From NCBI RefSeq assembly GCF_009914755.1, contig NC_060926.1: 64,000 bases of DNA. The stretch is one strand, 5' to 3'. This DNA comes from the human T2T-CHM13v2.0 reference genome, Homo sapiens. The translations under genes and the position numbers were made by a program. Below the pieces are notes generated by a model. It saw only the letters and a list, made by a program, of their open reading frames with translations, searched no databases and was not told where the DNA came from. Below are positions 18,256 through 48,047 of this stretch, one piece after another; position 1 is the first letter of the stretch, and every line of letters starts with the position of its first letter.

Positions 18256-19132
18256 ATTTTACCATATAGCATCCCCTTAATACATTTTGTTAAATCAAAT
18301 TGATACTCTAGAGAATTTTTCATTCAAACATATTAGATTTCTTTTGGAAAACATAGGTTTTACATCCTGTGCACAGTGGATTTGATTTGCTTTTTAGTTT
18401 TTTCATGGAGAGGAACCTAAAAGAGAGAACAGAGAGGAAGAGTCGAGGGTTGCGGTACCCAACCTCAGTCATGCAGCCCTTATAATGAAGGCCAGCTTGG
18501 ATCTCCTTAATGTGGGAACCAGAATCCACAACATCCCTTGCAGGCTCTCGAGCTGCTGCACTCCATAGCCACATTTATGAAGATGGATAAAAAGCACCTT
18601 TTGCAGGCTTCACTGCCCAAGCAGTGGTAGTAATATAAACACCCAGTAAGAGGGGGTTGATGAAGTATGATCTGTCAACTTGATGCACCATCATGACTCT
18701 AGGAAAATAGTAATTATAAAGACTAGGGAGAAACATGCAAGAATGCTTCAAATGTTTACCATATGATGTTAACTAAAAAAAGTACAGTGTAATGTGATTG
18801 CACCTATTTAAACTATACATATATATGAAAATGTAAACCAAAAGTGAATATAACAGAAATTAAACATTTGCATTAAGATGGAAGGATTCTGAATGGTATT
18901 TTTAGATTTAATAAATATTCTATTGTTTTGACAGTAAAACATCAAAATTAAATGTCAAAATACACTGGAGACACTCCCCCAAGAGGAATGCCGTGGAAGA
19001 ACAGGCAATGACTACTCAGTTATTTTTTCTTGCCATTATTTCCCTGCTCCACAGACACATGGGAGACAAACAAAGAAAATCAGCATGGATGATAATCAGT
19101 TGTTCTCTAGCCCACAGAATATGTCTATATGC

Positions 19133-19435
19133 TATTTATTTATTTATTTATTTGTTTATTGAGACAGAGTCTCACTCTGTCACGCAGGCTGGAATGCAGT
19201 GGTGGGATCTTGGCTCACTGCAACCTCCACCTCCCGGTTCAAGCAATTCTCCTGCCTCAGCCTCTTGAGCAGCAGCTGGGATTACAGGTACATGCCACCA
19301 TGCCTGGCTAATTTTTGTAGAGACCGTGTTTCACCACGTTGGCCAGGCTGCTCTTGAACTCCTGACCTCATGTATTCCACCCGCCTCGGCCTCCCAAAGT
19401 GCTGGGATTACAGGCGTGAGTCACCACGCCTGGCC
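19133..19435 (-). mobile_element. AluS-type SINE with (TTTA)n tail
   Basis: Reverse Alu dimer ending cctggcc, with a short deletion in the central A-rich linker. Confidence 0.95.
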
Positions 19436-20479
19436 TGTAAGCATAAAAAGCATATCTTCCCTCACTTATTCATTGGATAAAAGTGCTACGTTTTACCCAA
19501 TGAAAAAGTGAGGCAAGATATGCTGTAGAATTCCTCAACACTACTTTTCAGGTGAAATACAGAATATTCAAGAACCTCTTGCTCACTGGGTCACAGGGTT
19601 GAGTGATGAGTCCCTAAGTTGAACCACGACTTTTCACACCTAGCCTAGCATTATTTCTTCTCAACCAGACTGTCCTTATGTCCCAGTGATTGCAAATAAT
19701 AGTTTGTGCATTTGAGGGGTATATAGTTAACATGCTGATTCTCTGAAGGTTATAGAAAAAAAAAGCTTCATATTTTACTTTGTATAATGTCATTTTTGAG
19801 GTTCAAGGCATGAATAATAAGACTGAAAGAAAGATGCCATTGGAAATGGGAGGACATTTGGAGCAGTGACAAGATTGTCCAGCTATGCACTTCCCAGATT
19901 TTCACCTAAATGCACATTTACCACAATTCCCATTTTCTTTCAAGTCCCCCAGGAGTCCCTTTGCCAATGCAACCTACTCTTTCCCCAGCAAGCCTCACAT
20001 GTTTGAGTTAGGAGGGTTTGTCTCTGTGCTTCCCCCTGGGCTGACTCAGTTTTAGCTCTGATCTCCCTGCAAAATTAAAGGCTTAACTCCTGTGTCAGAG
20101 AGCAAGATTTTGGAAAAACACTTGGGAAATCAGAAAATTACACAACTCTGTTCAACAGCCAAGATACCCCTGCCCCCATCTTTACCATCTGTTCACTGCT
20201 TGTCCCCAGCAGCACAGGACCACCCAGGTGGGACACCTGCTTCATGCAGAGCCCCAGCACAGACAGCAGTGGGAGGAAGGGCTCTCTGCTTGAAGGGGTC
20301 ATATTTCAGGGAGAATGAAAGGTGACGGATGCTCTGATGAGGCCAAAAAGCATCCCACAGGCTATTCTCTGCCCAGCCTAAGCAAAGGACACTGCTGTCA
20401 GCACTGAGGAGACCCTCCAACAAAGGTACTGTAGCCCAGCAGTATCCATGGGGTTAGGTTCCAAGTGGATGCCTGAAAC

Positions 20480-21108
20480 TGTTACTGGAAAGGGGTCCCA
20501 ATCCAGACCCCAAGAGAGGGTTCTTTAATCTCATGCAAGAATTCCCGGGGAGTCCACAGAGTAAAGGGAAAGCAAGTTTATTAGAGAAGCAAGAGAACAA
20601 AAGATTGGTTACTCCATAGGCAAAGCAGCCCCAAGGGCTGCTGGTTGGGTATTTTTATGGTTATTTCTTGATTATATGCTAAACAAGGGGTGGATTATTC
20701 ATAAGTTTTCCAGGAAAAGGGCAGACAATTCCTAGAACTGAGGGTTCCTCCCCTTTTTAGACTATATAGGGTAATTTCCAGACATTGCCATGGCATTTGT
20801 AAACTGTCATGGTACTGGTGGGAATGTCTTTTGTAATTGCAGATAATGAGCACTGAAGACGACCAGAGGTTACTTTCATCACCATCTTGGTTTTGGTAGC
20901 TGCTTTACTGCATCCTGTTTTATCAGCAGGGTCTTTACCACCTCTGCCAGTCCTGTAGACCTTCTGTCTCATCTTGTGACTAAGAATGCCTAACCTCCTG
21001 GGAATGCAGCCCGGCAGATATCATCCTCATTTTACCCAGCAGGTATCATCCTCGTTTTACTCAGCTCCCATTCAAGATGGAGTCACTCTGATTCAAATGC
21101 CTCTGACA
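20480..21108 (-). mobile_element. MER41 (MER41B-like) ERV1 solo LTR, full length
   Basis: TG...CA termini (tgttactggaaaggggtcc...ttcaagatggagtcactctgattcaaatgcctctgaca) and a 4-bp TSD AAAC on both sides. Confidence 0.92.
20708..20737. promoter_or_regulatory. Tandem GAS (STAT) motifs in MER41
   Basis: TTCCAGGAA (20708-20716) and TTCCTAGAA (20729-20737) both fit TTCN3GAA, at the position of the known MER41B tandem GAS. Activity is not shown by sequence. Confidence 0.6.
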
Positions 21109-21409
21109 AAACCACGGATAGCACCAAATCTTAAAAATTGCTATGTTTTTTTATATGATAAAGTTTAGTTTACAGATTAGGCACAGTAACAGATTAACAA
21201 CACTAACTACTAATAAAACAGAACAATTGTAACAATATACTGTAAAAAAAGTTGTATGAGTGTGGTCTTTTTCTCTCAAAATATCTTACTGTACTACACT
21301 CACTTAACTTTTGGATCACAGTTGACCAGATGACCGCAAGTTACTGAAACCATGGAAAACAAAACCTTGGATAAAGGGGGTTCCTGCCTGCTAAAGGCAC
21401 ACTCAAGAA

Positions 21410-21411
<2 letters not shown>

Positions 21412-21455
<44 letters not shown>
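21412..21455. repeat. (CA)n microsatellite, ~22 units
   Basis: Uninterrupted CA run. Confidence 0.97.
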
Positions 21456-21458
<3 letters not shown>

Positions 21459-22634
21459 TGCATGTACACGATAGTTTCAGAAAGTCAAGGCCAGGTATTT
21501 TGAAACGTATCAAAAATCTATGTGCATACTAACCTGGAATCTAATTTCCTGCCCCAGCCTCTCTACTTAATAAAGTAAAAGGCTGCCTATCTCATAGCAC
21601 TTTTTCTTTTATTCAAGTTAAGCCTTCTCTTCTGCTTTGGTTGTAGGTCATGATCCTGGCTGCTCCCTGCAGACTGAAAAGGTTGACTTCTAGATCTATA
21701 CGTGACCAGCTTAATTCTAGAGAGACTGTCTGAAGTACTGCACTGTGTTTAGTTTCCACGTCATTTATCACTGACATCGTCTCATGCATGAAAGTGCAAG
21801 GAGATTTAAGGAGCTGGCATTTTCTCACAAGATCTCCTTTAGTGGAACGGTGCCTAACATGCTACTTAACTCACGCTGCCACTGAAACATAACTCTCCTC
21901 TCCCCAGCACTTCTGTCTTCCATGGAACAGCACAGTCTTCAGCAAGTAGAAAGCTCTACTCAGAACTCTTAGTCCTATTGTGCTAAAATGTGCGTCACAC
22001 GCACAGGGTTAGGTCACAACCTATCTTCGCACTTCAAATCCCACGTCTCAAAAACAGCTGGACAGAACCTGGTTTTGTAAGAGCAAGTCACCTGAATGAC
22101 CAAGAAATTCTCAAATAGCACAAAGAAGACAAAAAGAAAATACTACTTCTTTGAGTTTGAAGAAGACCGAGTTTATGTGCCTCATTATGGATTTTTACTT
22201 CTTCAATTTGTTTTCATTCTTCCAACCCACCACTTTTTTTTTTTACTGTCTAAAAGCATTAAAAAAATTTAAACCAGGGATAAAATCTTGATGATTCTGT
22301 AGCCAGTTTTACTTGATTCTTGGTTCTAGAAATAGAATTTCTAATTTCATTAAAACAAGCCCCTAGAAACAGGTTTCTCTGCTAAAAGAACCAATAATCA
22401 GGATTCTACAAATGCAAGGGCCATACAAACTATGTTTCCAAAATCAAAAGTCACAAAGAATTGACATTTTCTTCACAAATGCAGACACCGTATTCTGAAA
22501 TATTTATATTCCATTCAGTCAAAAGAATGTCCCCCTACTAGTTCTGCTCACCTCCTTCTTGAATCTGAAAGATCTGGTATAGGTCTATCTTGTAATATGG
22601 GAACTGTAAGCACTAACCCCAATATGTACCTATG

Positions 22635-22680
22635 CACACACACACACACACGCACACACACTCACATGCACAAACACACA
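22635..22680. repeat. Imperfect (CA)n microsatellite
   Basis: Interrupted CA run. Confidence 0.85.
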
Positions 22681-22732
22681 TGCAAGAGAGGTTGCTGCTG
22701 TTTAGTCACACGTTTCCTCAATTAAATTTATT

Positions 22733-23047
<315 letters not shown>

Positions 23048-23933
23048 TTATTTCAACATCAGTGTCCTCTGAAATTATGATTAGCCATTGAGAGTGAGCA
23101 ACTCTCTGAAAGCACGTATTTTAAACTGGTAAGAATTCTGCTTATACCTAAGACAAAGCTTCTCTGATGTTTATATGATATTAGACAAGCTACATTATTT
23201 TTCAAACTTTTTGACACTTATAAGTGAAGATACATCTCATTTTATCTATGTGTTTCTAAGCTATAGTAAAAAACAAAAACAAAACAAACAAACAAAAAAA
23301 AAAACAATGAGTCAGTATTCCATTTTGCCCATATGACTTAGATTTGGATTTCTGTCTATTTCACAGTGGTCTGCTCTTTCTAATCCTTAAATGTATCTAA
23401 TCCCATAAATGTATATTCTGCTCATTTGTACCAATCAGAGCCTACGTGTAGGCTAAATATGTTGCAACTTGTTTAGTTAATTACAACTTTCCAGGAAGTG
23501 CCAGTATCTAATAATACCTCTTCTCCCAGGTTGAAATTAGTGATAAAATTTTTTGATTTAAGAAAATTCTTTTGGGTTAAGAAAATTCGTCTCGTTAAAA
23601 TGGAAATTCTCCTGGAAAACATAATACAATGAATGAGCCATAATCTGACATTTACCCCCCCTGAGAAATTTTTGTTTGGCATCCTTTATTATATTGCAGT
23701 CATTATATGGACCAAGCAGGAAGAAAGAAAAAATAGATCTGGAGTCTGGGCACTAAGTGAAGAGTCTTAATATTCAAGGGCAGTGGTCACTCAGGGGAAT
23801 AGATATAGAAGAGGGGAGGCAGGAGGATGCCAAAACTCATTGAGTTTTGTTTTTGCCTATTGGCCATGTTCCAAAGCTGCTACCCATGAGCCAGGTTAGA
23901 AAAGGAGTGTTGCCATATGGATTGCTGTGATAT

Positions 23934-24728
<795 letters not shown>

Positions 24729-27015
24729 TGTATCAGTCTGTTTTCACACGGCTGATAAGGACATACCCCATACCCAAGACAAGGAAGAAAAAGAGGTTTA
24801 ATGGACTCACAGTTCCACATGGCTAGGGAGGCCTCATAATCATGGAGGAAGGCAAAGAGGAGCAAGTCACATCTTACATGGATGGTGGCAGGCAAAGAAG
24901 AGAGAGCTTGTGCAGGGAAACTCCAGTTTTTAAAACCACAAGATCTCATGAGACTTATTCAGTATCATGAGAGCTGCATGGGAAAGACCTGCCCCCCTCC
25001 CCCCCATGTTTCAATTACCTGCCACCAGGTTCCTCCCACGACACATAGGAATTGTGGGAGTTACAATTCAAGATGGAATTTGGGTGGAGACACAGCCAAA
25101 TCAGGTCATCCCACCCTGGCCCCTCCCAAATCTCACATCCTTTTTACATTTCAAAACCTATCATGCCTTCCCAACAGTCCCCCAAAGTATTAACTCATTT
25201 CAGCATTAACTCAAAGTCCGCAGTCCAAAGTCTCAATGAGACAAGGCAAGTCCCTTCCATCCATGAGCCTGTAAAATCAAAAGCAAGATAGTTACTTCCT
25301 AGATACAATGGGGGTACAGGTATTGGGGAAATACAACTGTTCTAAATGGGAGAAATTGGCCAAAAAAGGGACTACAGTCCCCATGCACATCTGAAATCCA
25401 GTGGGGCAGTCAAATCTTCAGCTCAAAATGATCTCCTTTGCCTCCATGTCTCACATCCAGGTCACACTGATAAAAGAGGAGGGTTCCCATGGCCTGGAGC
25501 AGCTCCTCCACTGTGGCTTTGCAGGGTACAGCCTCCCTCCTGGCTGCTTTCACAGGCTGGTGTTGAGTGTCTGCAGCTTTTCCAGGCACATGGTGCAAGT
25601 TGTTGGTGGATCTACCATTCTGGGGTCTGGAGGATGGTGGCCCTCTTCTCACAGCACCATTAGGCAGCGCCCCAGTAGGGACCCTGTGTCAGGGCTTCCA
25701 CCACACTGCCCTAGCAGTGGTTCTCTGTGAGTGTCCCACCCCTGCAGCAAACTTCTTCCTGGACATCCATGTATTTCCATACATCTTCTAAAACCTAGGC
25801 AGAGGTTCACAAACCTCAATTCTTGACTTCTGTGCACTCGAAGGCTCAACACCACATGGAAACTGCCAAGGCTTGGGGCTTCCACCCTCTGAAGCCACTG
25901 CCTGAGCTGTACCTTGGCCCCTTTTAGCCATATCTAGAGCAGCTGGGATGAAGGGCACAAAGTCCCTAAGCTGCACACAGCAGGGGGGCCCTTGGCCCAG
26001 CCCACAAAACCATTTTTTCTTCCTAGGCCTTCAGGCCTGTGATGTGAGGGGCTGCCTCAAAAGGTCCCTGACACGCCCTGGAAACATTTTCCCCATTGTC
26101 TTGGGGATTAACATTTGGCTCCTCCTTACTTATGCAAATTTCTGCAGACTGCTTGGATTTCTTCTCAGAAAATGGGTGTTTCTTTTCTATCATATAGACT
26201 GCAAATTTTTCGAACTTTGATGCTGTTTCCCTTTTAAAACTGAATGCTTTTAACAACACGTAAGTCCCACCTTGAATGCTTTGCTGCTTAAAAATTTCTT
26301 CTGCCAGATACCCTCAATCATCTCCCTCAAGTTCAAAGTTCCACAGATCTCTATGGCAAGGGCAAAATGCTGCCAATCTCTTTGCTAAAACATAGCAAGA
26401 ATCACCTTTACTCCAGTTCCCAACAAGTTCCTGATCTCCATGTGAGATCACCTCAGCCTGGATTGCATTGCCCATGTAATTGTCAGCATTTTTATCAAAG
26501 CCATTCAACAAGTCTCTAGTGAGTTACAAACTTTCCCACATTTTCCTGTCTTCTTCTGAGCCCTCCAAACTGTTCCAACCTCTGCCTGTTACCCAGTTCC
26601 AAAGCCGCTTCCACATTTTTGGGTATCTTTCCAGCAGTGCCCCACTCTACTGCAGCAATTTACTTTAATAGTCCATTTCCATGCTGCTGATAAGTACATG
26701 CCCAACAGGGGAGAAAAAGAGGTTTAATGGACTTAGAGTTCCACATGGCTGGAGAGGCCTCACAATCATGGAGGAATGCAAGGAGGAGCAAGTCACATCT
26801 TACATGGATGGCAGCAGGCAAAAAGAGAAAGCTTGTGCAGGGAAACTCCAGTTTTTAAAACCATCAGATCTCATGAGACTATCACAAGAAAAGCATGGGA
26901 AAGACCAAACCCCATGATTCAGTTACTTCCCACCAGTTCCTCCCATGACAAGTGGGAACTGTGGGAGTTACAATTCAAGATGAGATTTGGGTGGGGACAC
27001 AGCCAAACCATATCA
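24729..27015 (-). mobile_element. Full-length THE1C MaLR provirus (3'LTR 24729-25108, internal 25109-26663, 5'LTR 26664-27015)
   Basis: Two direct ~360-bp LTR copies share agaaaaagaggtttaatggact and gagcaagtcacatcttacatggatgg around a ~1.55-kb THE1 internal region. The right end ggacacagccaaaccatatca is the reverse of the THE1 start. No intact ORF and no clear TSD. Confidence 0.92.
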
Positions 27016-27398
27016 GCATTTTAGTCTGTTTGGGTTGTTATAACAAAATATCAGAGACTAGATAGCTTATAAACAAGAAAAAGATTATTTCTCACAGTTC
27101 TGGAGGCTGGGAAATCCAAAATCTAAGTGCCAGCAGATTCAGCACCTGGTAAGGACTCACTTTCTGGATCATGGATGCAACTGTCTAGCTGTGTCCTCAC
27201 ATGGTAAAAGTGGGCAGGGCAGTTTCCTGGGGCCTCTTTTATAAGGGCACTAATTTCATTCATGAGGGGTCTACCTCCATGAACCAATTACTTTCCAAGT
27301 CTAATCACTTCCCAATGGTTCTACCTTCTGATACCATCACAGTGGTGATTAGGTTTCAGCATATGAATTTTTGGAGGGACACAGTTCAGATCATAGCA
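27016..27398 (-). mobile_element. MLT1A/MSTD-like MaLR solo LTR
   Basis: ttagtctgtttgggttgttataacaaaata...tttctcacagttctggaggctgggaaatccaa...gggacacagttcagatcatagca. Confidence 0.85.
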
Positions 27399-27699
27399 TA
27401 TAGTAATATTGGTGAAAACATAATGATCACTTACTAAGCTCTTACTAATGCATCACCTCTTTTAACAGCAATGCTTGATTTTCTTCATTTACATATAAGG
27501 ACACTGAAGCACAGACAGACTAGGTTACCAGCCCATGGCTATACAGAACCCAGAGAGTCTGGCTTTAGAGCCTAAAGTCTGAACTTCCCTATTCAGCAGC
27601 TTCCCTGCTGCTGGGATGGAAACACTCAACTCTTACATCTCAATGTCTGACCTTAAAATGGATCCTCTCACAGACACACCCTAATGTGAGCTGTGATGA

Positions 27700-28230
27700 G
27701 TAACACCCTTGTATAATTCCCTCCCCTTGAGAGCAGATGTAACCTGAGACTTGTTTCTAGATGATAGAATATATCAAAGGTGATGGGATTGTTTCCCATG
27801 ATTATATTATATTGTACAGAACTTGGTCTTGGTAGCCTGGACTGAGAGGTTCTCCTACTGAGTTGAAGAAGTAAGCTATCATGTTATGAGAGGGCCTATA
27901 AGAGGTCCATGTGGTAAGGAACTGTGGGTGGTCTCTAGATCTCAGAGAGGATAAGCCAGGACCAGGGTGACAGCCCCAAGACAGCAGTCCTCCAGCTGCA
28001 AGGATATAAATTCTACCAATACGCCCATGATATATACAAATATACCAGTTCTGCCAGTATAACCACATGAGTTTAGAAGTGGACCTGAGGCTCCAGATAA
28101 GAACATAGCCTAGCCAGATTCTTGTGAGATCCAAAGCAGAGGACTGAGCTAAGCCATGCTCAGACTCCTGGCGCAGATAAACTATAAGGAACATGAATTG
28201 TTTTAACCTGTGGGTTTGTGGTGCTTTGTT
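27700..28230 (+). mobile_element. MLT1E/F-like MaLR LTR, 3' tip missing
   Basis: cctccccttgag...gacttgtttctag...ccatgtggtaaggaactg...ctaagccatgctcagactcctg...ttgttttaa...gtttgtggtgctttgtt. The usual ...aactaataca end is absent. Confidence 0.75.
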
Positions 28231-28328
28231 GACATTCCTGTTGTCTTGGCTAGGATTCTGGCTCACGTTTACTTTGAGAATCTCCTGCGAGCTCTTTTGT
28301 TCCCCAGTTCGCTCTTCTTCAAATTTGC
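28222..28328 (+). repeat. Segment A (107 bp), duplicated in inverted orientation at 30305-30410
   Basis: Its reverse complement matches 30305-30410 with about 7 differences. Confidence 0.97.
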
Positions 28329-28689
28329 CTGCCATAGGTTTCTTTTGAAAATGTAATCTTGATATGCAATCCTTCAATATCAAATGCATCAGTACCACCT
28401 TTTTGTATAGGATAAAGCCCATACTCCTCTACATATTGCAGAACGCCCTCTCCAGTTTGGTTCCACATTACCCTATGTTTCCTAACCTCTTGCTACCTCC
28501 TTCATGCACTGTTCATTCATTCTTTCTTTCAATCAACCGTGTACCTACATTTTGCCAGAAGCTGTTCTAGGCACTATGTATATGAAGCCTAAATAACAAT
28601 TTATCCCAAAATATGCCTCTAATTTAGTTGAAGGGACAGACAATTTAGTCAACAATCACAGTTCGGTATAAAAATGTCTATGGGTTGAA

Positions 28690-28900
28690 GAATAAAATGG
28701 TAAAATTCCAATTCCACCACTCACTATTTCTGGGAATTTAGGGAAGTCAACTTTTGTCTCTGCACCTCAGCATTCTCATATGTAAATACTGGAAATAACA
28801 TCTATTTCATATCATCATTTTTGAGAAGGATTAAACTAGATGATATAAATCAAGTTATTAGCATAATGCTGAATACTGAGTGAGAAACCAGTATTAGTTA
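28690..28900 (+). mobile_element. MIR SINE
   Basis: tctctgcacctcagcattctcatatgtaaatactggaaataac...aggattaaactagatgata. Confidence 0.7.
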
Positions 28901-29239
28901 AATTTTGATATTCAGTTTGTGTTTAATTTATCAACACTTTAAAGGGAGGAAAGACAAGAATCACAGAGGAGGTGGCAGGGCAGAGTGCCCAGGAGGAGTA
29001 AGCCTTGGGGTGATCATGGGAGGATGATGGAATTTGACCCAAATGTGGAGTTTTCAGGCAGGAGGACAACGTGTGTGAAGATTCAGATGCCTGAAATAGC
29101 AGGATGTGTTGCAGACACTAATGACGGGGTTTGTCTGAGAAACAGGTGCATGTGTGAGAATTCATTCAAAGCCCCTTTCATTTTTTTCCAACATTCATCT
29201 TTACTCTCCAAGAGGAAAAAAAGAAGAAAACTTAATCTG

Positions 29240-29440
29240 ATGCTTACTATGTGCCAGACATTGAAATGCTTTACGCATATGAATTTACGGAATCCTACCC
29301 AATGAGGTAGGTGGTACTCTCATCTCCATGTTGCAGATGAAGAAAGTGAAACCAAGAAAGGATGAATATTTTTCCCAAGGTCATAGAACTACTAACCGGT
29401 AGTCTGAGATTTGATCCCAAGCACTAGGAGAGCTCTTTAC
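29240..29440 (-). mobile_element. MIR SINE overlapping the outer end of the left inverted-repeat arm
   Basis: tgcttactatgtgccagac...ttgcagatgaagaaagtgaaacc...cccaaggtcatag...gatttgatccca. Confidence 0.8.
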
Positions 29441-29703
29441 CACATGTATAGGTGCTTCCCAAGTCCACCAAAACTAACAGATTCAAGTAAACACACAAGC
29501 AAGAAGGCAAACAGAGACACAATTAATTGGGTGGATGAAATCATTAAAGTTTACTTAGGCAAGCCCCTTCAACACAAGTGAGAAAACTGAAACTCAGAAA
29601 GGTTATGACTTTTCTTTCCTACTGAAGCTAATAAGTGGCAGTTCTAAGGGTAGATTCTAAATATCTTCAGCAACATAAATGAACTGGTACTTATGTCAGT
29701 GAC

Positions 29704-29752
<49 letters not shown>

Positions 29753-30307
29753 TCTCATGTATATGTATATATATTCTCATGTATATGTGTATATATTCTC
29801 AAGTATATGTATATACATATATGTATATATACACACCTATATACACACACATATATATATAGTCACTGACATAAGTACCAGTTCATTTATGTTGCTGAAG
29901 ATACTTGGAATCTACCCTTAGAATGCTTAGAACTGCCACTTAGTAGCTTCAGTATGAAAGAAAAGTCATAACCTTTCTGAGTTTCAGTTTTCTCACTTGT
30001 GTTGAAGGGGCTCACCTAGGTAAACTTTAATGATTTCATCCACTCAGTTAATTGTGTCTCCGTTTGCCTTCTTCCTTGTGTGTTTACTTGAATCTCTTAG
30101 TTTTGGTGGACTTGGGAAGCATCTATACATGTGGTAAAGAGCTCTCTCAGTGCTTGGGATCAAATCTCAGACTACCAGTTAGTAGTTCTATGACCTTGGG
30201 AAAAATATTCATCCTTTCCTGGTTTCACTTTCTTCATCTGCAACATGGAGATGAAAGTACCACCTACCTCTTTGGCTAGGATTCCATAAATTCATATATG
30301 TAAAGCA
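29267..30307. repeat. Long inverted repeat: arms 29267-29714 and 29851-30307, 136-bp microsatellite spacer
   Basis: Manual alignment gives ~23 substitutions and one 9-bp indel (cattctaag) over ~448 bp, about 95% identity. Confidence 0.98.
29704..29861. repeat. Compound (TA)n/(CA)n microsatellite with 3 copies of atatattctcatgtatatgt
   Basis: Read directly from the sequence. Confidence 0.95.
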
Positions 30308-30479
30308 AATTTAAAGAAGAGCAAACTGGGGACAGAAAGAGCTCTCAGGAGATTCTCAAGTAAACGTGAGCCAGAACCCTAGCCAAGACAACAGGAATGT
30401 CAACAAAGCATATTCCTGTATATGTATACATACATATATACACACAGTATGCATGCACACATATGTGTGTTTATATATT

Positions 30480-30541
30480 TATGTGCATCAAGAATATTCA
30501 TTTAGTACACTATGTGTGTCAAGAATATTCATTTAGTACAG
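30480..30541. repeat. 31-bp tandem duplication
   Basis: tatgtgcatcaagaatattcatttagtacac / tatgtgtgtcaagaatattcatttagtacag. Confidence 0.92.
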
Positions 30542-30889
30542 TAAATAATTTGTTGGGCCTTTGCCCCCTGAAACTATAGGCTTGGCATGTAAAATCAATC
30601 AGACGTGCCCTTCCAGTTGAATAGCATTGAGAAAGCAGCCCCTCACACCACTTTGGAACATACACAAGGAGTGTTAGATATAATATTCCTTGTTAATAGC
30701 TTACAGTCTTACTGAACAAAAAGAATATTTAAAATGAGTAAAATAGAGGCTACTAATGTATATACTAAAAAGTGATCATTGCAAAATACAGATAATCAAT
30801 TCAAAAGGCCCAAAGTCATCAGACATCACTGTTTCTGTGTTTTACTTTCCAAAACACACTTCTAAATGTGTCTGGCTGTCACACATAAT

Positions 30890-31500
30890 TTCTTCATTTC
30901 ATCATTTCAAAAATATTTTTGAATGCCTATTAAGTGCAATGTACTATTTCTAGGCATTTGGGATGCAAAACAGACATGATCCCAGCCCTGGTGAAGCCTA
31001 TTCTATACCAGAGGAAGATAAACAATACATAATACACATAACAAAAATTATATAATATGTTGTATAGTGATGAATTCCAGGAAACAGAATATCAGATAAG
31101 GGTGACCTGGAGGTGAGAGGTACAGTATTAAATAGGAGCATCAGGGTAACCCTTTAAAGATGACTATTGAGGAAAAACTTAACAATAATGAAAGTTACAG
31201 GCAATTAGATATCTAAAATAAGAGTCTTCCAGGCGGACACACACCAAGGCAAAGGCCTTGGTGTGTTTAGGAGATACCAAGGAGGTCAGGGTGTTTGAAA
31301 CAACATGACTAGGGGCAAAAAATAGTAGAAGGAGAAATAACAGAGCCAGTACATGTAGAGTCCTCTACCCCACTTTGAAATGAAGAGTCACTGTAGAGAG
31401 TTCAGCAGACAACTATCACAATCCAACAAATGTTTTAATTCTTTTCTCAGCAAGAACTGCATAAGAATGCTGCAGCCACCCAGGTGAAAGGTGATGATGG
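30890..31500 (-). mobile_element. L2 LINE 3' fragment
   Basis: tcatttcaaaaatatttttgaatgcctatt...tctaggcatttgggatgca...caaggcaaaggccttgg, reverse L2 3' end. Confidence 0.65.
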
Positions 31501-44766: not shown

Positions 44767-45534
<768 letters not shown>

Positions 45535-47715
45535 GCCAGAAATAATATTATTAAGGAAAATAGAAGTTTCTTTTTACCCTGAAAAAAGAAAGAAATATTA
45601 ATTAGCCCTGCTCTTCTCCATAACACTTTGAAGGTACCTCTCTTTCAGCATCTGCCATACTCAACTTTAAATTACACTTACTTTTGTACTCTATGTTTCT
45701 TGTCAATGAGATCTGTTTGATTATCTTTCTAACCTCATATTGCTTAGCATCACGTCTTACTTGATGTACAATAATTATTTATGGAGTGAATTAATGGAAG
45801 ATTGCATATCAATGAATTAAACAAACTAGACTTTTATATTAGATATGTGTACAGCAGGCTTTGAAGAGCTCAAACATGCTTGTTGACTTTTGAAGAGAAT
45901 TATGTTTTTCTGTAATAAAATAAACACAGTATTCATCTGGAATATCAAACTAAGCCTACATCAAAAGGACATGAAAAAACCTGGGGCAGTACAAGAACAC
46001 ATACTCACAATCATCTCAAGAAAAGAGAAAAGGATGAGAAAATGTCTGATATCCAGGGGGAGAAAATGGGGAATTATTTTGAGCAAATATTTTAACACAT
46101 GTTAAGCATTTATTTTGTGGTCTACAATACAAAAAATTAGGGCTCCATATATTTTAGGAAAATGATAGTCTCACCTTTCAATTTTTGTAGAATTCACTAC
46201 ATTTTCAAGATCTCTGGTGTAATGTGTGAAAAGCTAACGTAGAAGGACCAAGAGACAGTAACTATTTATGGGTCAAGCTTTACCTTGCTAAATATGGGGA
46301 CTGGCTGAAAATCTGCAAGCAGCCACTCTAGAAAAAGGCTTAAGAAATAGAACTCTTAATCTATTTGTACTTCTCCCTTGCCAGATGGGGTCCCTGCCTG
46401 GACAGTGAAAATGGGGGGTGGAGCAGCAGTGGGGCTGGCATTTTGAATGATGTGCCTCTAGGTCACTAGATCACAATCTGCTCAAAGTTGTGTTGCCAGG
46501 AAGATGACACTGCCATTTGACATCCCAATAATTTCCTTGGTAACATATGCAATCAGTTCACAACCCAGCCCCAGCACAGTTGGCCAGAGTTGGGGAAATG
46601 GGTGGGGACTTGTTGGCACTCCCAAGAAGACAGGTGGAGAAGCTGAGGATTAAGCTGTTTGCTCAGCCAGCAAAGAGAGAGATGTGTCAGAAGCTTCTTC
46701 AGCCCTTTTCACACTGCGTTAAATATATTTCCTATTAAAAAGCCCTAGCCTGACTATATAATAATGATAACTCCAACTGCATAATAATGAGTTAATTATT
46801 TTTTGTCTGTCTCTATCCAACCAGATAGGAAACTCCTTGAAGGTAGAATATTGATTTATTTTTATCTTTCTCCAAGGAAGACTTCTGTGTTTAGATACTG
46901 TTTGAATAACAGAATGTGCATAAATGTTCTTTAGAAACTATAACATGCTGTTCAAATGCTTTTGCTTATTTAGAAAGGAATTAAAGCAAAAAGAAACAAA
47001 AGCAAGTTTTAAATTAAAAAATAAACACAGAGTTTCAGGATATCAGTGTCACACCCTAGAAGCAAAGTTTTACTTACACTCCATAATAATTCTTAACATC
47101 GTCATTTCTCTAAGGGCCCTCTTTTATCTTCTTTTTTTTAATAAAAATTGAGTGTGCATTAGTGCACTTGAGTTCTCTTTGAATGCATCTAGAATACAAG
47201 TGCAGTCATCAGGTAACCATGAAATATGAAATGGAAAAAAGCTAATGGTGCATTGTTATTACCATGGATGAATCCCAAGATGTGGAGCAGTTCACAGCAC
47301 AATGCATAAGCATAGGATTTAAAGGATCACACCTGGCTTTATGGAGCTGCAAGTCCATTAGAGTAATTCAAGTCTTCAAAAAGCAGAAATGTAGAATGGG
47401 GCCAGTGTACCCAGGCAAGGTGAAGCATGGAAGCAGCATTGTACTTTTGCTTCTATTAGAAAGCATGGGCAAAGCTGGGGCCCATCAGGACATATCCAGG
47501 ATTTAGTGGCCTCCTAAATGGTCCAGGAAAACACCTGGCAAACAAAGAATATACTGGACATGCTCTGAATGCCCACCTAAGTCAGCTGAGTAAGCAATGG
47601 GGAGCTGCCCACAGGTCTTGAGAGATGGGAAAAGAATTGAAACTGTAGTGGTAGCTTCACAAGCAGCAAATGGAAGGATTCAACAGGCAAGGCTCTTGGC
47701 AACCTATCTGAACTA

Positions 47716-48047
<332 letters not shown>

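What the first reader, a model, noticed from the sequence alone, without database searches (positions are those of the whole stretch)
30305..30410. Second templated inverted segment joined by GCA microhomology: a fossil multi-step template switch
Seen: the right arm ends ...gtaaagca and continues with no spacer into the reverse complement of 28222-28328 (~93% identical). The shared junction bases are GCA (30305-30307). The overall order is A-C-B-microsatellite-B'-A', with C (28329-29266, 938 bp) single-copy. The A-C and C-B junctions run through continuous L2-like and MIR sequence, so the B'-A' junction is the derived one. Both inverted segments end in aaagca. Established: serial templated segments joined by microhomology typify FoSTeS/MMBIR. 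Inference: a fork stalled in the microsatellite, folded back, jumped ~0.94 kb and returned; alternatively, a 1.5-kb inverted duplication later lost C'. As single-stranded nucleic acid the region would form a ~550-bp duplex with C looped out.
Basis: partly seen in the sequence, partly recalled or inferred. Interest (0 to 1): 0.8.

Follow-up and report, generated by a model that had tools for sequence, protein, structure and literature searches.

The report
Fossil two-step inverted copy at microsatellite
An ancient 560-base patch in a human chromosome 2 gene desert was copied backwards from two nearby stretches and stitched together at three shared bases, a clear but ordinary scar of a DNA-copying machine that switched templates.

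Summary
B (29267-29714) and B' (29851-30307) are inverted copies, 448 aligned bases with 23 mismatches, around a 136-base TA/CA repeat. B' runs without a spacer into A' (30305-30410), the reverse complement of A (28222-28328), with 7 mismatches in 106 bases. The joint shares GCA.

In the whole T2T genome A and B each occur twice and C (28329-29266) once. A profile built from 28 independent copies of a MIR-like SINE runs unbroken across the C/B boundary. In B' it stops exactly at 30307. So the B'-A' joint is derived.

The two segments are equally diverged (Fisher p=0.63). About 5.6% divergence suggests an age of tens of millions of years.

Best reading (0.6): a single event. A 3' end in the self-complementary (TA)n tract folded back, copied B, hopped 0.94 kb to A and rejoined the microsatellite. 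The rival (0.3) is a 1.5-kb inverted duplication that later lost C'. No primate genomes were available, so this stays open.

Both copied segments end in AAAGCA, an unexplained coincidence that mildly favours one event.

This is a known kind of rearrangement (fold-back with serial template switching). Interest is modest.

The parts
27700..28230 (.). Interspersed repeat copy (family not named by any tool) that abuts and slightly overlaps the left edge of A
   Evidence: One search found 48 genome matches. In one search, 15 of 37 nhmmer alignments to 28 other copies reach past 28221, and 13 of those stop at 24-30 of 282xx. The overlap with A is only 3-9 bases, so this is weak support that A sits in its original context.
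28222..28328 (+). A, source of the second templated segment; starts with TGCTTT
   Evidence: It has two copies in the whole genome (itself and A').
28329..29266 (+). C, a 938-base single-copy stretch skipped in the inverted copy
   Evidence: In one search it matches only itself in the genome. Weak MIR-like fragments lie inside it.
29240..29351 (+). MIR-like SINE fragment that runs unbroken across the C/B boundary (29266/29267)
   Evidence: A profile from 28 independent copies, built with this region left out, aligns profile positions 16-136 here (E 3.1e-18). In B' the match covers only positions 47-136 and stops at 30307.
29267..29714 (+). B, source of the first templated segment; starts with TGCTTT and ends in a (TA)7 run at 29704-29717
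29715..29850 (.). Spacer: a compound (CA)n/(TA)n microsatellite with 22-base tandem units
   Evidence: (TRF rows 29717-29741, 29744-29815 and 29824-29859).
29851..30307 (-). B', the inverted copy of B; begins in a (TA) run at 29851-29861; carries a 9-base tandem insertion at 29924-29932
   Evidence: 448 aligned bases with 23 mismatches.
30305..30307 (.). GCA microhomology shared by the end of B' and the start of A'
   Evidence: observed 3 bases; P(>=3) = 0.059 for random joints.
30305..30410 (-). A', the inverted copy of A
   Evidence: 7 mismatches in 106 bases, plus a 1-base gap; E 1.8e-35.
30411..30480 (.). TA/CA-rich low-complexity flank resembling the spacer; probably the far side of the microsatellite that received the insert
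   Evidence: local alignment score 33 against 17.7 +/- 3.6 for 300 shuffles (maximum 31). The register is ambiguous. family D2 also links the two. One search finds only microsatellite-type matches elsewhere.

Best explanation
A single ancient mutational event inserted about 560 templated bases (B'+A', 29851-30410) into a compound TA/CA microsatellite.

Proposed sequence of steps:
1. A growing 3' end lay in the self-complementary (TA)n tract. It belonged either to a nascent strand at a stalled fork or to a resected broken end.
2. It paired back onto the (TA)n run at 29704-29717, about 135 bases upstream.
3. It was extended along the same-sense strand and copied B backwards to 29267.
4. It came off with the 3' end ...AAAGCA, re-paired through GCA/TGC at 28326-28328, and copied A down to 28222. 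Its end again read ...AAAGCA.
5. It was rejoined to the original duplex at 30411.

Shown: the two templated segments, their sources, the derived nature of the joint, the microhomology, and equal divergence.

Inferred: that all steps happened in one event, the direction of synthesis, and fork versus break.

The product has no detectable function. It lies in a gene desert and is simply a fixed scar, about as old as the arm divergence of 5.6%. With substitution rates that I recall, not computed here, that is roughly 25-55 million years.
For: 1.

2. C-B is ancestral and B' is truncated in mid-element exactly at the joint. So B'-A' cannot be an original adjacency.

3. The mirror point lies in (TA) runs on both sides (29704-29717 and 29851-29861). 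TA repeats are their own reverse complement, which is what a fold-back needs.

4. The patch is flanked on both sides by TA/CA low-complexity sequence. This fits an insertion into one pre-existing microsatellite.

5. The divergences are equal: A 7/106 and B 23/448, Fisher p = 0.63. Without CpG sites they are 5/106 and 19/448, p = 0.79.

6. The joint has a 3-base microhomology.

7. TGCTTT occurs on the + strand only twice in 27500-31000, exactly at the outer ends of A and B. The chance of the same 6-mer at two random starts is 3.5e-4. A single strand released twice with the same 3' end gives a mechanistic link. The two-step history gives none.

8. Passages read in PMC11724301 show that in yeast a resected end folds back on a 10-nt inverted microhomology across a 41-nt loop. 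Pol delta extends it, and the second end captures it. Insert lengths there are biased by microhomology to the second end.

9. Passages in PMC3907307 report that human fold-back inverted duplications have spacers, 2-8 bases of inverted microhomology, and often extra inserts drawn from within 1 kb.
Against: - No outgroup genome could be examined, so simultaneity of B' and A' is not shown.
- Equal divergence has little power with only 106 bases of A. It is also what the two-step history predicts if C' was lost at any later time.
- The 3-base microhomology is only marginally beyond chance (P = 0.059).
- The AAAGCA coincidence was noticed post hoc.
- The return joint (30410/30411) shows no assessable microhomology, because the ancestral empty site is unknown.
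- Experimentally documented fold-back inserts at breaks are mostly far shorter: 2 to about 150 bases, most under 14 (PMC11724301).
- Continuity across the A-C joint was not demonstrated.
Confidence: 0.6

Rival explanations
1. Two-step history. One fold-back copied the whole 1.5-kb stretch A-C-B as B'-C'-A'. Later an unrelated 938-base deletion with a 3-base microhomology removed C' from the right arm.
For: The end product is identical. Deletions with 3-base microhomology are common. From recall, long inverted repeats with short spacers are unstable and prone to deletion. Equal A/A' and B/B' divergence is also expected here.
Against: - It needs two rare events in the same 1.5 kb.
- From recall, deletions that stabilise long palindromes are typically central, yet here the central 448-base arms are left intact.
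- The identical 6-mer TGCTTT at the duplication end (28222) and at the deletion end (29267) would be pure coincidence (3.5e-4 per pair of positions).
- No trace of C' exists anywhere in the genome.
Confidence: 0.3
2. Two independent templated insertions at different times. B' arose first by a simple fold-back, and A' was added later at its end, or the reverse.
For: A/A' is nominally more diverged (6.6%) than B/B' (5.1%).
Against: The difference is not significant (p = 0.63). It vanishes when the three adjacent mismatches at 28298-28300 are counted as one event. A second insertion landing exactly at the end of the first, in the same orientation and from the same 2-kb neighbourhood, is very unlikely.
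Confidence: 0.04
3. Not a template-switch product at all. Candidates are an assembly artefact (chimeric fold-back read), a transposon with terminal inverted repeats, two independent SINE insertions, or a retrocopy of a spliced minus-strand transcript in which C was an intron.
For: One phase of the ambiguous joint (28329..29269) reads CT...GC on the + strand. That would be a GC-AG intron on the minus strand.
Against: - Artefact: arms that differ by 5% cannot come from a chimeric read.
- Transposon or SINE pair: A and B each have exactly two copies in the genome, and other MIR-like copies are at most 85% identical over at most 117 bases.
- Retrocopy: the donor AAA|GCATTT is weak and the tract before the acceptor is purine-rich. 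No poly(A) follows A'. The copy starts exactly at the mirror point of its own source, which random reinsertion would not give.
Confidence: 0.03

Closest known systems
FoSTeS/MMBIR-type complex rearrangements (serial, microhomology-joined templated segments)
   Same: Two segments were templated from nearby sequence, inverted, joined to each other at a 3-base microhomology, and followed by a return to the original locus.
   Different: The scale is tiny (448 + 106 bases, with hops of 0.13 and 0.94 kb), whereas clinical cases span kb to Mb. This is an old fixed neutral event, not a de novo pathogenic one. Origin in one event is not shown.
Fold-back inverted duplications (Hermetz et al. 2014, PMC3907307; passages read)
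   Same: The inverted copy lies next to its source, separated by a single-copy spacer. There is inverted (micro)homology at the spacer edge. Extra inserts drawn from within about 1 kb occur at some junctions.
   Different: Those are Mb-scale with terminal deletions, dicentric intermediates and spacers of 766-70,466 bases. This one is interstitial, 560 bases long, with a 136-base spacer and no loss of a chromosome end.
Fold-back templated insertions at double-strand breaks in yeast (PMC11724301; passages read)
   Same: An end folds back on a short inverted homology across a loop of tens of bases. It is extended, unwound and captured by the other end. End points are biased by microhomology to the second end, which would explain the repeated AAAGCA.
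   Different: The yeast inserts are 2 to about 150 bases, mostly under 14, and single-template. Here 554 bases were copied from two templates.
Short-range template-switch mutations, four-point model (Loytynoja and Goldman 2017, PMC5453318; passages read)
   Same: The geometry resembles their '3-2-1-4' type, which creates a new inverted repeat by copying upstream sequence in reverse complement.
   Different: Their model explicitly excludes multiple successive switches. This locus needs six switch points and is much longer than the mutation clusters they study.
ODIRA and DUP-TRP/INV-DUP iterative template switches (PMC10766183, PMC11293582; search listing and start of abstract only)
   Same: A template switch between strands at short inverted repeats generates inverted copies.
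   Different: Those produce large copy-number gains (triplications, extrachromosomal intermediates). Nothing of that kind is seen here.

Membership tests
Serial template-switch rearrangement (FoSTeS/MMBIR type) | Two or more segments templated from nearby sequence and joined directly in a derived block | tested here: met
Serial template-switch rearrangement (FoSTeS/MMBIR type) | Microhomology at the joints | tested here: inconclusive
   The B'/A' joint has 3 bases (P(>=3) = 0.059). The fold-back joint lies in (TA) runs of 10-14 bases. The return joint at 30410/30411 cannot be assessed without the empty site.
Serial template-switch rearrangement (FoSTeS/MMBIR type) | All segments arose in one event | not testable with these tools
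   No primate genomes are held. Equal divergence (p = 0.63) is compatible but not decisive.
Fold-back inverted duplication | Inverted copy adjacent to its source, with a single-copy spacer and inverted homology at the spacer edge | tested here: met
   The spacer is 136 bases (29715-29850), and self-complementary (TA) runs lie at both edges.
Fold-back inverted duplication | Terminal deletion or dicentric intermediate | tested here: not met
   The sequence continues normally into unique flank after 30410. The event is interstitial.
Four-point short template-switch mutation | A single switch-and-return describable by four points | tested here: not met
   There are two non-adjacent templates (28222-28328 and 29267-29714), so six points are needed. 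The model excludes successive switches (PMC5453318 passages).
Segmental duplication (>=1 kb, >=90% identity, as quoted in PMC11794170) | Length of at least 1 kb | tested here: not met
   The copied blocks are 448 and 106 bases. The identity criterion is met. The B pair would qualify for that paper's catalogue of pairs of 200 bp or more at 80% or more, but I could not see the catalogue, which is on GitHub.
Transposon with terminal inverted repeats / MITE | Arms belong to a multi-copy family and target-site duplications are present | tested here: not met
   The arms have two copies in the genome. The left arm is continuous with flanking SINE sequence.
Processed retrocopy | Canonical splice removal of C, a poly(A) tail, and a distant insertion site | tested here: not met
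   Only a weak GC-AG phase exists on the minus strand. There is no poly(A) after 30410. The copy sits at the mirror point of its source.

The most novel reading that the evidence does not exclude
The identical 6-mer at both template exits (TGCTTT at 28222 and 29267, so the nascent end twice read ...AAAGCA) may be a natural record of homology testing. On this reading the strand was released, failed to be captured, primed once more through GCA, and was captured only when the same end was regenerated. Exit points in serial template switching would then be selected by microhomology to the final acceptor. This predicts that the empty site in an outgroup reads ...(A)GCA directly before TATTCC.
Probability: 0.15. 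Interest if true: 0.45.

Novelty: new member of a known kind. Interest (0 to 1): 0.25.

Why it matters
The locus is a clean worked example, readable from a single genome, of a germline event with two templates. A fold-back at a TA repeat was followed by a second short hop. The SINE truncation proves the polarity: which copy is the source and which joint is derived.

Events of this intermediate size fall between two studied classes. They are larger than the short mutation clusters modelled by four-point template switching and smaller than the kb-to-Mb clinical rearrangements. Neither kind of survey reports them readily.

The mechanism class is well known, and the locus lies in a gene desert with no sign of function. 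Its value is illustrative, and it offers one testable prediction about how the exit points were chosen.

Tried and rejected

2. L2 continuity at the A-C joint. Genome searches with 28150-28420 and 27700-28700 found nothing there. nhmmer of 27700-28900 against 28 repeat loci was also run. Only 2 of its 37 alignments run past 28230, both with low posterior probability there. nhmmer of 28231-29240 against 174 kb of window and loci gave 5 weak hits, all inside C. No family crosses 28328/28329.

3. A junction-centred genome search (29205-29330, E up to 10) found only the locus itself and B'. In pairwise blastn of the 8 other MIR-like copies, only 1 of 8 crossed 29266/29267. I therefore built the profile used.

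4. Exact register between the right flank and the spacer. The aim was to see whether the return produced a short direct duplication. The alignment is ambiguous in low-complexity sequence. The reverse-complement score of 34 equals the forward score of 33.

5. Rfam. There are 23 matches at E <= 1 in 27000-31500. All are below the gathering scores and all lie in the TA/CA repeats: the mir-297, mir-466 and mir-3149 families, which are themselves TA/TG-rich. They were rejected as composition matches.

6. The assembly artefact, transposon, paired-SINE and spliced-retrocopy readings were rejected. See the rival explanations.

7. The catalogue of inverted repeat pairs in T2T-CHM13 (PMC11794170) could not be consulted, because its data are on GitHub.

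Full report
**What is there**

The window is a gene-free part of human chromosome 2, according to the hub's annotation. Reading 27900-30800, the repeat finder and my own local alignments give this layout:

- A: 28222-28328
- C: 28329-29266
- B: 29267-29714
- a compound TA/CA microsatellite: 29715-29850
- B': 29851-30307
- A': 30305-30410

B and B' align over 448 bases with 23 mismatches. B' has one 9-base tandem insertion at 29924-29932. A and A' align over 106 bases with 7 mismatches and one 1-base gap. B' passes into A' with no spacer. The three bases GCA (30305-30307) belong to both segments, because TGC ends A (28326-28328) and also begins B (29267-29269).

**More than chance, and not a repeat family**

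I searched the whole assembly that holds the window.

- A is found only at its own place and at A' (E 1.8e-35).
- B is found only at its own place and at B' (94% and 92% identity).
- C is found only at its own place.
- The other matches to the left part of B are old SINE copies at 72-85% identity over at most 117 bases.
- Within the 64-kb window, every inverted pair outside this locus is at most 83% identical.

The 5% difference between the arms rules out a chimeric-read assembly artefact.

**Which joint is derived**

I built a profile of the SINE family that covers the left end of B. It resembles MIR as I recall it; no tool gave that name. The profile came from 28 copies elsewhere in the window and in eight other loci, and the region 28001-30600 was left out of the build.

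- The profile aligns to 29240-29351, at profile positions 16-136 (E 3.1e-18). It runs with high posterior probability straight across the C/B boundary at 29266/29267.
- In B' the same profile matches only positions 47-136 and stops exactly at 30307.

So the left copy is the intact original, the right copy is a truncated duplicate, and the B'-A' adjacency cannot be ancestral.

A second interspersed repeat fills 27700 to about 28230. In one search, 15 of 37 alignments reach past 28221 and 13 of those stop at 28224-28230. This puts the left edge of A a few bases inside that element. It is weak support, with an overlap of only 3-9 bases, that A rather than A' sits in its original context.

No family was found crossing 28328/28329. 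This does not affect the conclusion, because the C/B result alone makes B'-A' derived.

**Where the patch sits**

The mirror point lies in TA runs on both sides: 29704-29717 on the left and 29851-29861 on the right. TA repeats are their own reverse complement. The sequence just after A' (30411-30480) is again TA/CA-rich and resembles the spacer. Its alignment score is 33, against 17.7 +/- 3.6 for 300 shuffles with a maximum of 31. Family D2 also links the two stretches. The register is ambiguous, since the reverse-complement score is 34.

The simplest picture is that B'+A' (about 560 bases) was inserted into one pre-existing compound microsatellite.

**Age and equality of age**

| Pair | Mismatches | Raw difference | Jukes-Cantor distance |
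|---|---|---|---|
| A/A' | 7/106 | 6.6% | 0.069 |
| B/B' | 23/448 | 5.1% | 0.053 |

Fisher's exact test gives p = 0.63. Without CpG-context sites the counts are 5/106 and 19/448, p = 0.79. Three of the A mismatches are adjacent (28298-28300) and probably represent one event.

Combined, the count is 30/554, a distance of 0.056. I used substitution rates recalled from memory, not computed here: 0.5-1.0e-9 per site per year, and human-macaque divergence of about 6.5%. These put the event at roughly 25-55 million years, near the base of the catarrhines. Gene conversion between the arms would make it older.

**Mechanism**

The product is what a fold-back with one extra hop would give.

1. A 3' end in the TA run pairs with the TA run about 135 bases upstream.
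2. It is extended along the same-sense strand through B to 29267.
3. It comes off and re-pairs through GCA/TGC at 28326-28328.
4. It copies A down to 28222.
5. It is rejoined at 30411.

The literature I read supports the general picture.

- Abstract openings in the search listing (PMC9890227, PMC13669725) say that expanded TA repeats are proposed to form cruciforms that lead to breaks.
- Passages in PMC11724301 show the break version in yeast. There is a fold-back on a 10-nt inverted microhomology across a 41-nt loop, extension by Pol delta, and capture by the other end. The preferred insert lengths are set by microhomology to that other end.
- Passages in PMC3907307 show that human fold-back duplications have spacers, 2-8 bases of inverted microhomology, and junction inserts mostly drawn from within 1 kb.

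The B'/A' microhomology of 3 bases is only marginal evidence by itself. Random joints in the local sequence reach 3 bases or more at P = 0.059.

**One event or two**

The rival history is a 1.5-kb inverted duplication (B'-C'-A') followed by a 938-base deletion of C'. The deciding comparison with other primates cannot be made here, because the tools hold no primate genomes.

Three considerations lean towards one event.

1. The rival needs two rare events in the same 1.5 kb.
2. From recall, deletions that stabilise long palindromes usually remove the centre. Here the centre is intact.
3. TGCTTT occurs on the + strand only twice between 27500 and 31000, exactly at the outer ends of A and B (45 occurrences in the whole window). 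The chance that two random positions here start with the same 6-mer is 3.5e-4.

Under one event, both positions are places where the same growing strand was released with the same 3' end. That allows a common cause, either re-pairing through GCA or capture by a matching acceptor. Under two events, the two positions are unrelated breakpoints.

I put one event at 0.6, two steps at 0.3 and everything else below 0.1.

**Other readings considered**

- Transposon with inverted termini, or two SINE insertions: excluded by copy number and by continuity with the flanks.
- Retrocopy of a spliced minus-strand RNA with C as an intron. Of the four possible phases of the ambiguous joint, only 28329..29269 has splice-like ends, GC-AG on the minus strand. 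The donor is weak, the acceptor tract is purine-rich and no poly(A) follows A'. The copy also begins exactly at the mirror point of its source. Rejected.
- Structured RNA gene: only sub-threshold matches to TA/TG-rich microRNA families inside the microsatellites. Rejected.

101 of 107 A bases pair with A', 428 of 448 B bases pair with B', and C is looped out. There is no evidence that this ever matters.

**Comparison with what is known**

The locus behaves like a small fossil case of serial template switching (FoSTeS/MMBIR type) started by a fold-back.

- It does not fit the four-point model of short template-switch mutations, which by its authors' own words leaves out successive switches (PMC5453318 passages).
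- It is far smaller than clinical fold-back duplications and lacks their terminal deletion (PMC3907307).
- It is longer than the fold-back inserts documented at yeast breaks, and it uses two templates (PMC11724301).
- It is below the 1-kb size of a segmental duplication as defined in PMC11794170.
- The B pair would meet that paper's criteria for inverted repeat pairs (200 bp or more, 80% or more), so it is probably already listed among its 627,791 T2T inverted pairs. I could not see the list.

**Verdict**

The one-step claim is plausible but unproven, and the L2 detail was not reproduced. The locus is a new example of a known kind of mutation, with no sign of function. Interest is modest (0.25).

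Noticed in passing
window 29924-29932: A 9-base tandem duplication is present only in B' and absent from B. It looks like a later slippage event in one arm.
   Followed up: partly
window 29744-29815: About 3.3 tandem copies of a 22-base unit (94% matches) lie inside the spacer microsatellite. The sequence right after A' (30411-30432) looks like a further diverged unit.
   Followed up: partly
window 30480-30540: Two tandem copies of a 31-base unit (90-93% identical) lie just right of the TA/CA-rich flank.
   Followed up: no
window 27700-28230: This is a copy of an interspersed repeat family with many genomic relatives at 66-83% identity (48 matches, a lower bound). Many alignments end at 28224-28230. 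No tool named the family.
   Followed up: partly
window 28545-28909: Weak MIR-like fragments lie inside single-copy C: a profile hit at 28773-28881 on the minus strand (E 2.8e-5) and weak pairwise hits at 28545-28909.
   Followed up: no
window 29684-29865 and 30413-30491: Sub-threshold Rfam matches to the mir-297, mir-466 and mir-3149 families fall on the TA/CA repeats (best 44.6 bits against a gathering score of 100). I read them as composition matches.
   Followed up: partly
window 19126-24630: Several inverted pairs at 75-83% identity appear here and at 45209-47857. The printed arm of pair I8 looks like Alu as I recall it. These are ordinary repeat pairs.
   Followed up: no
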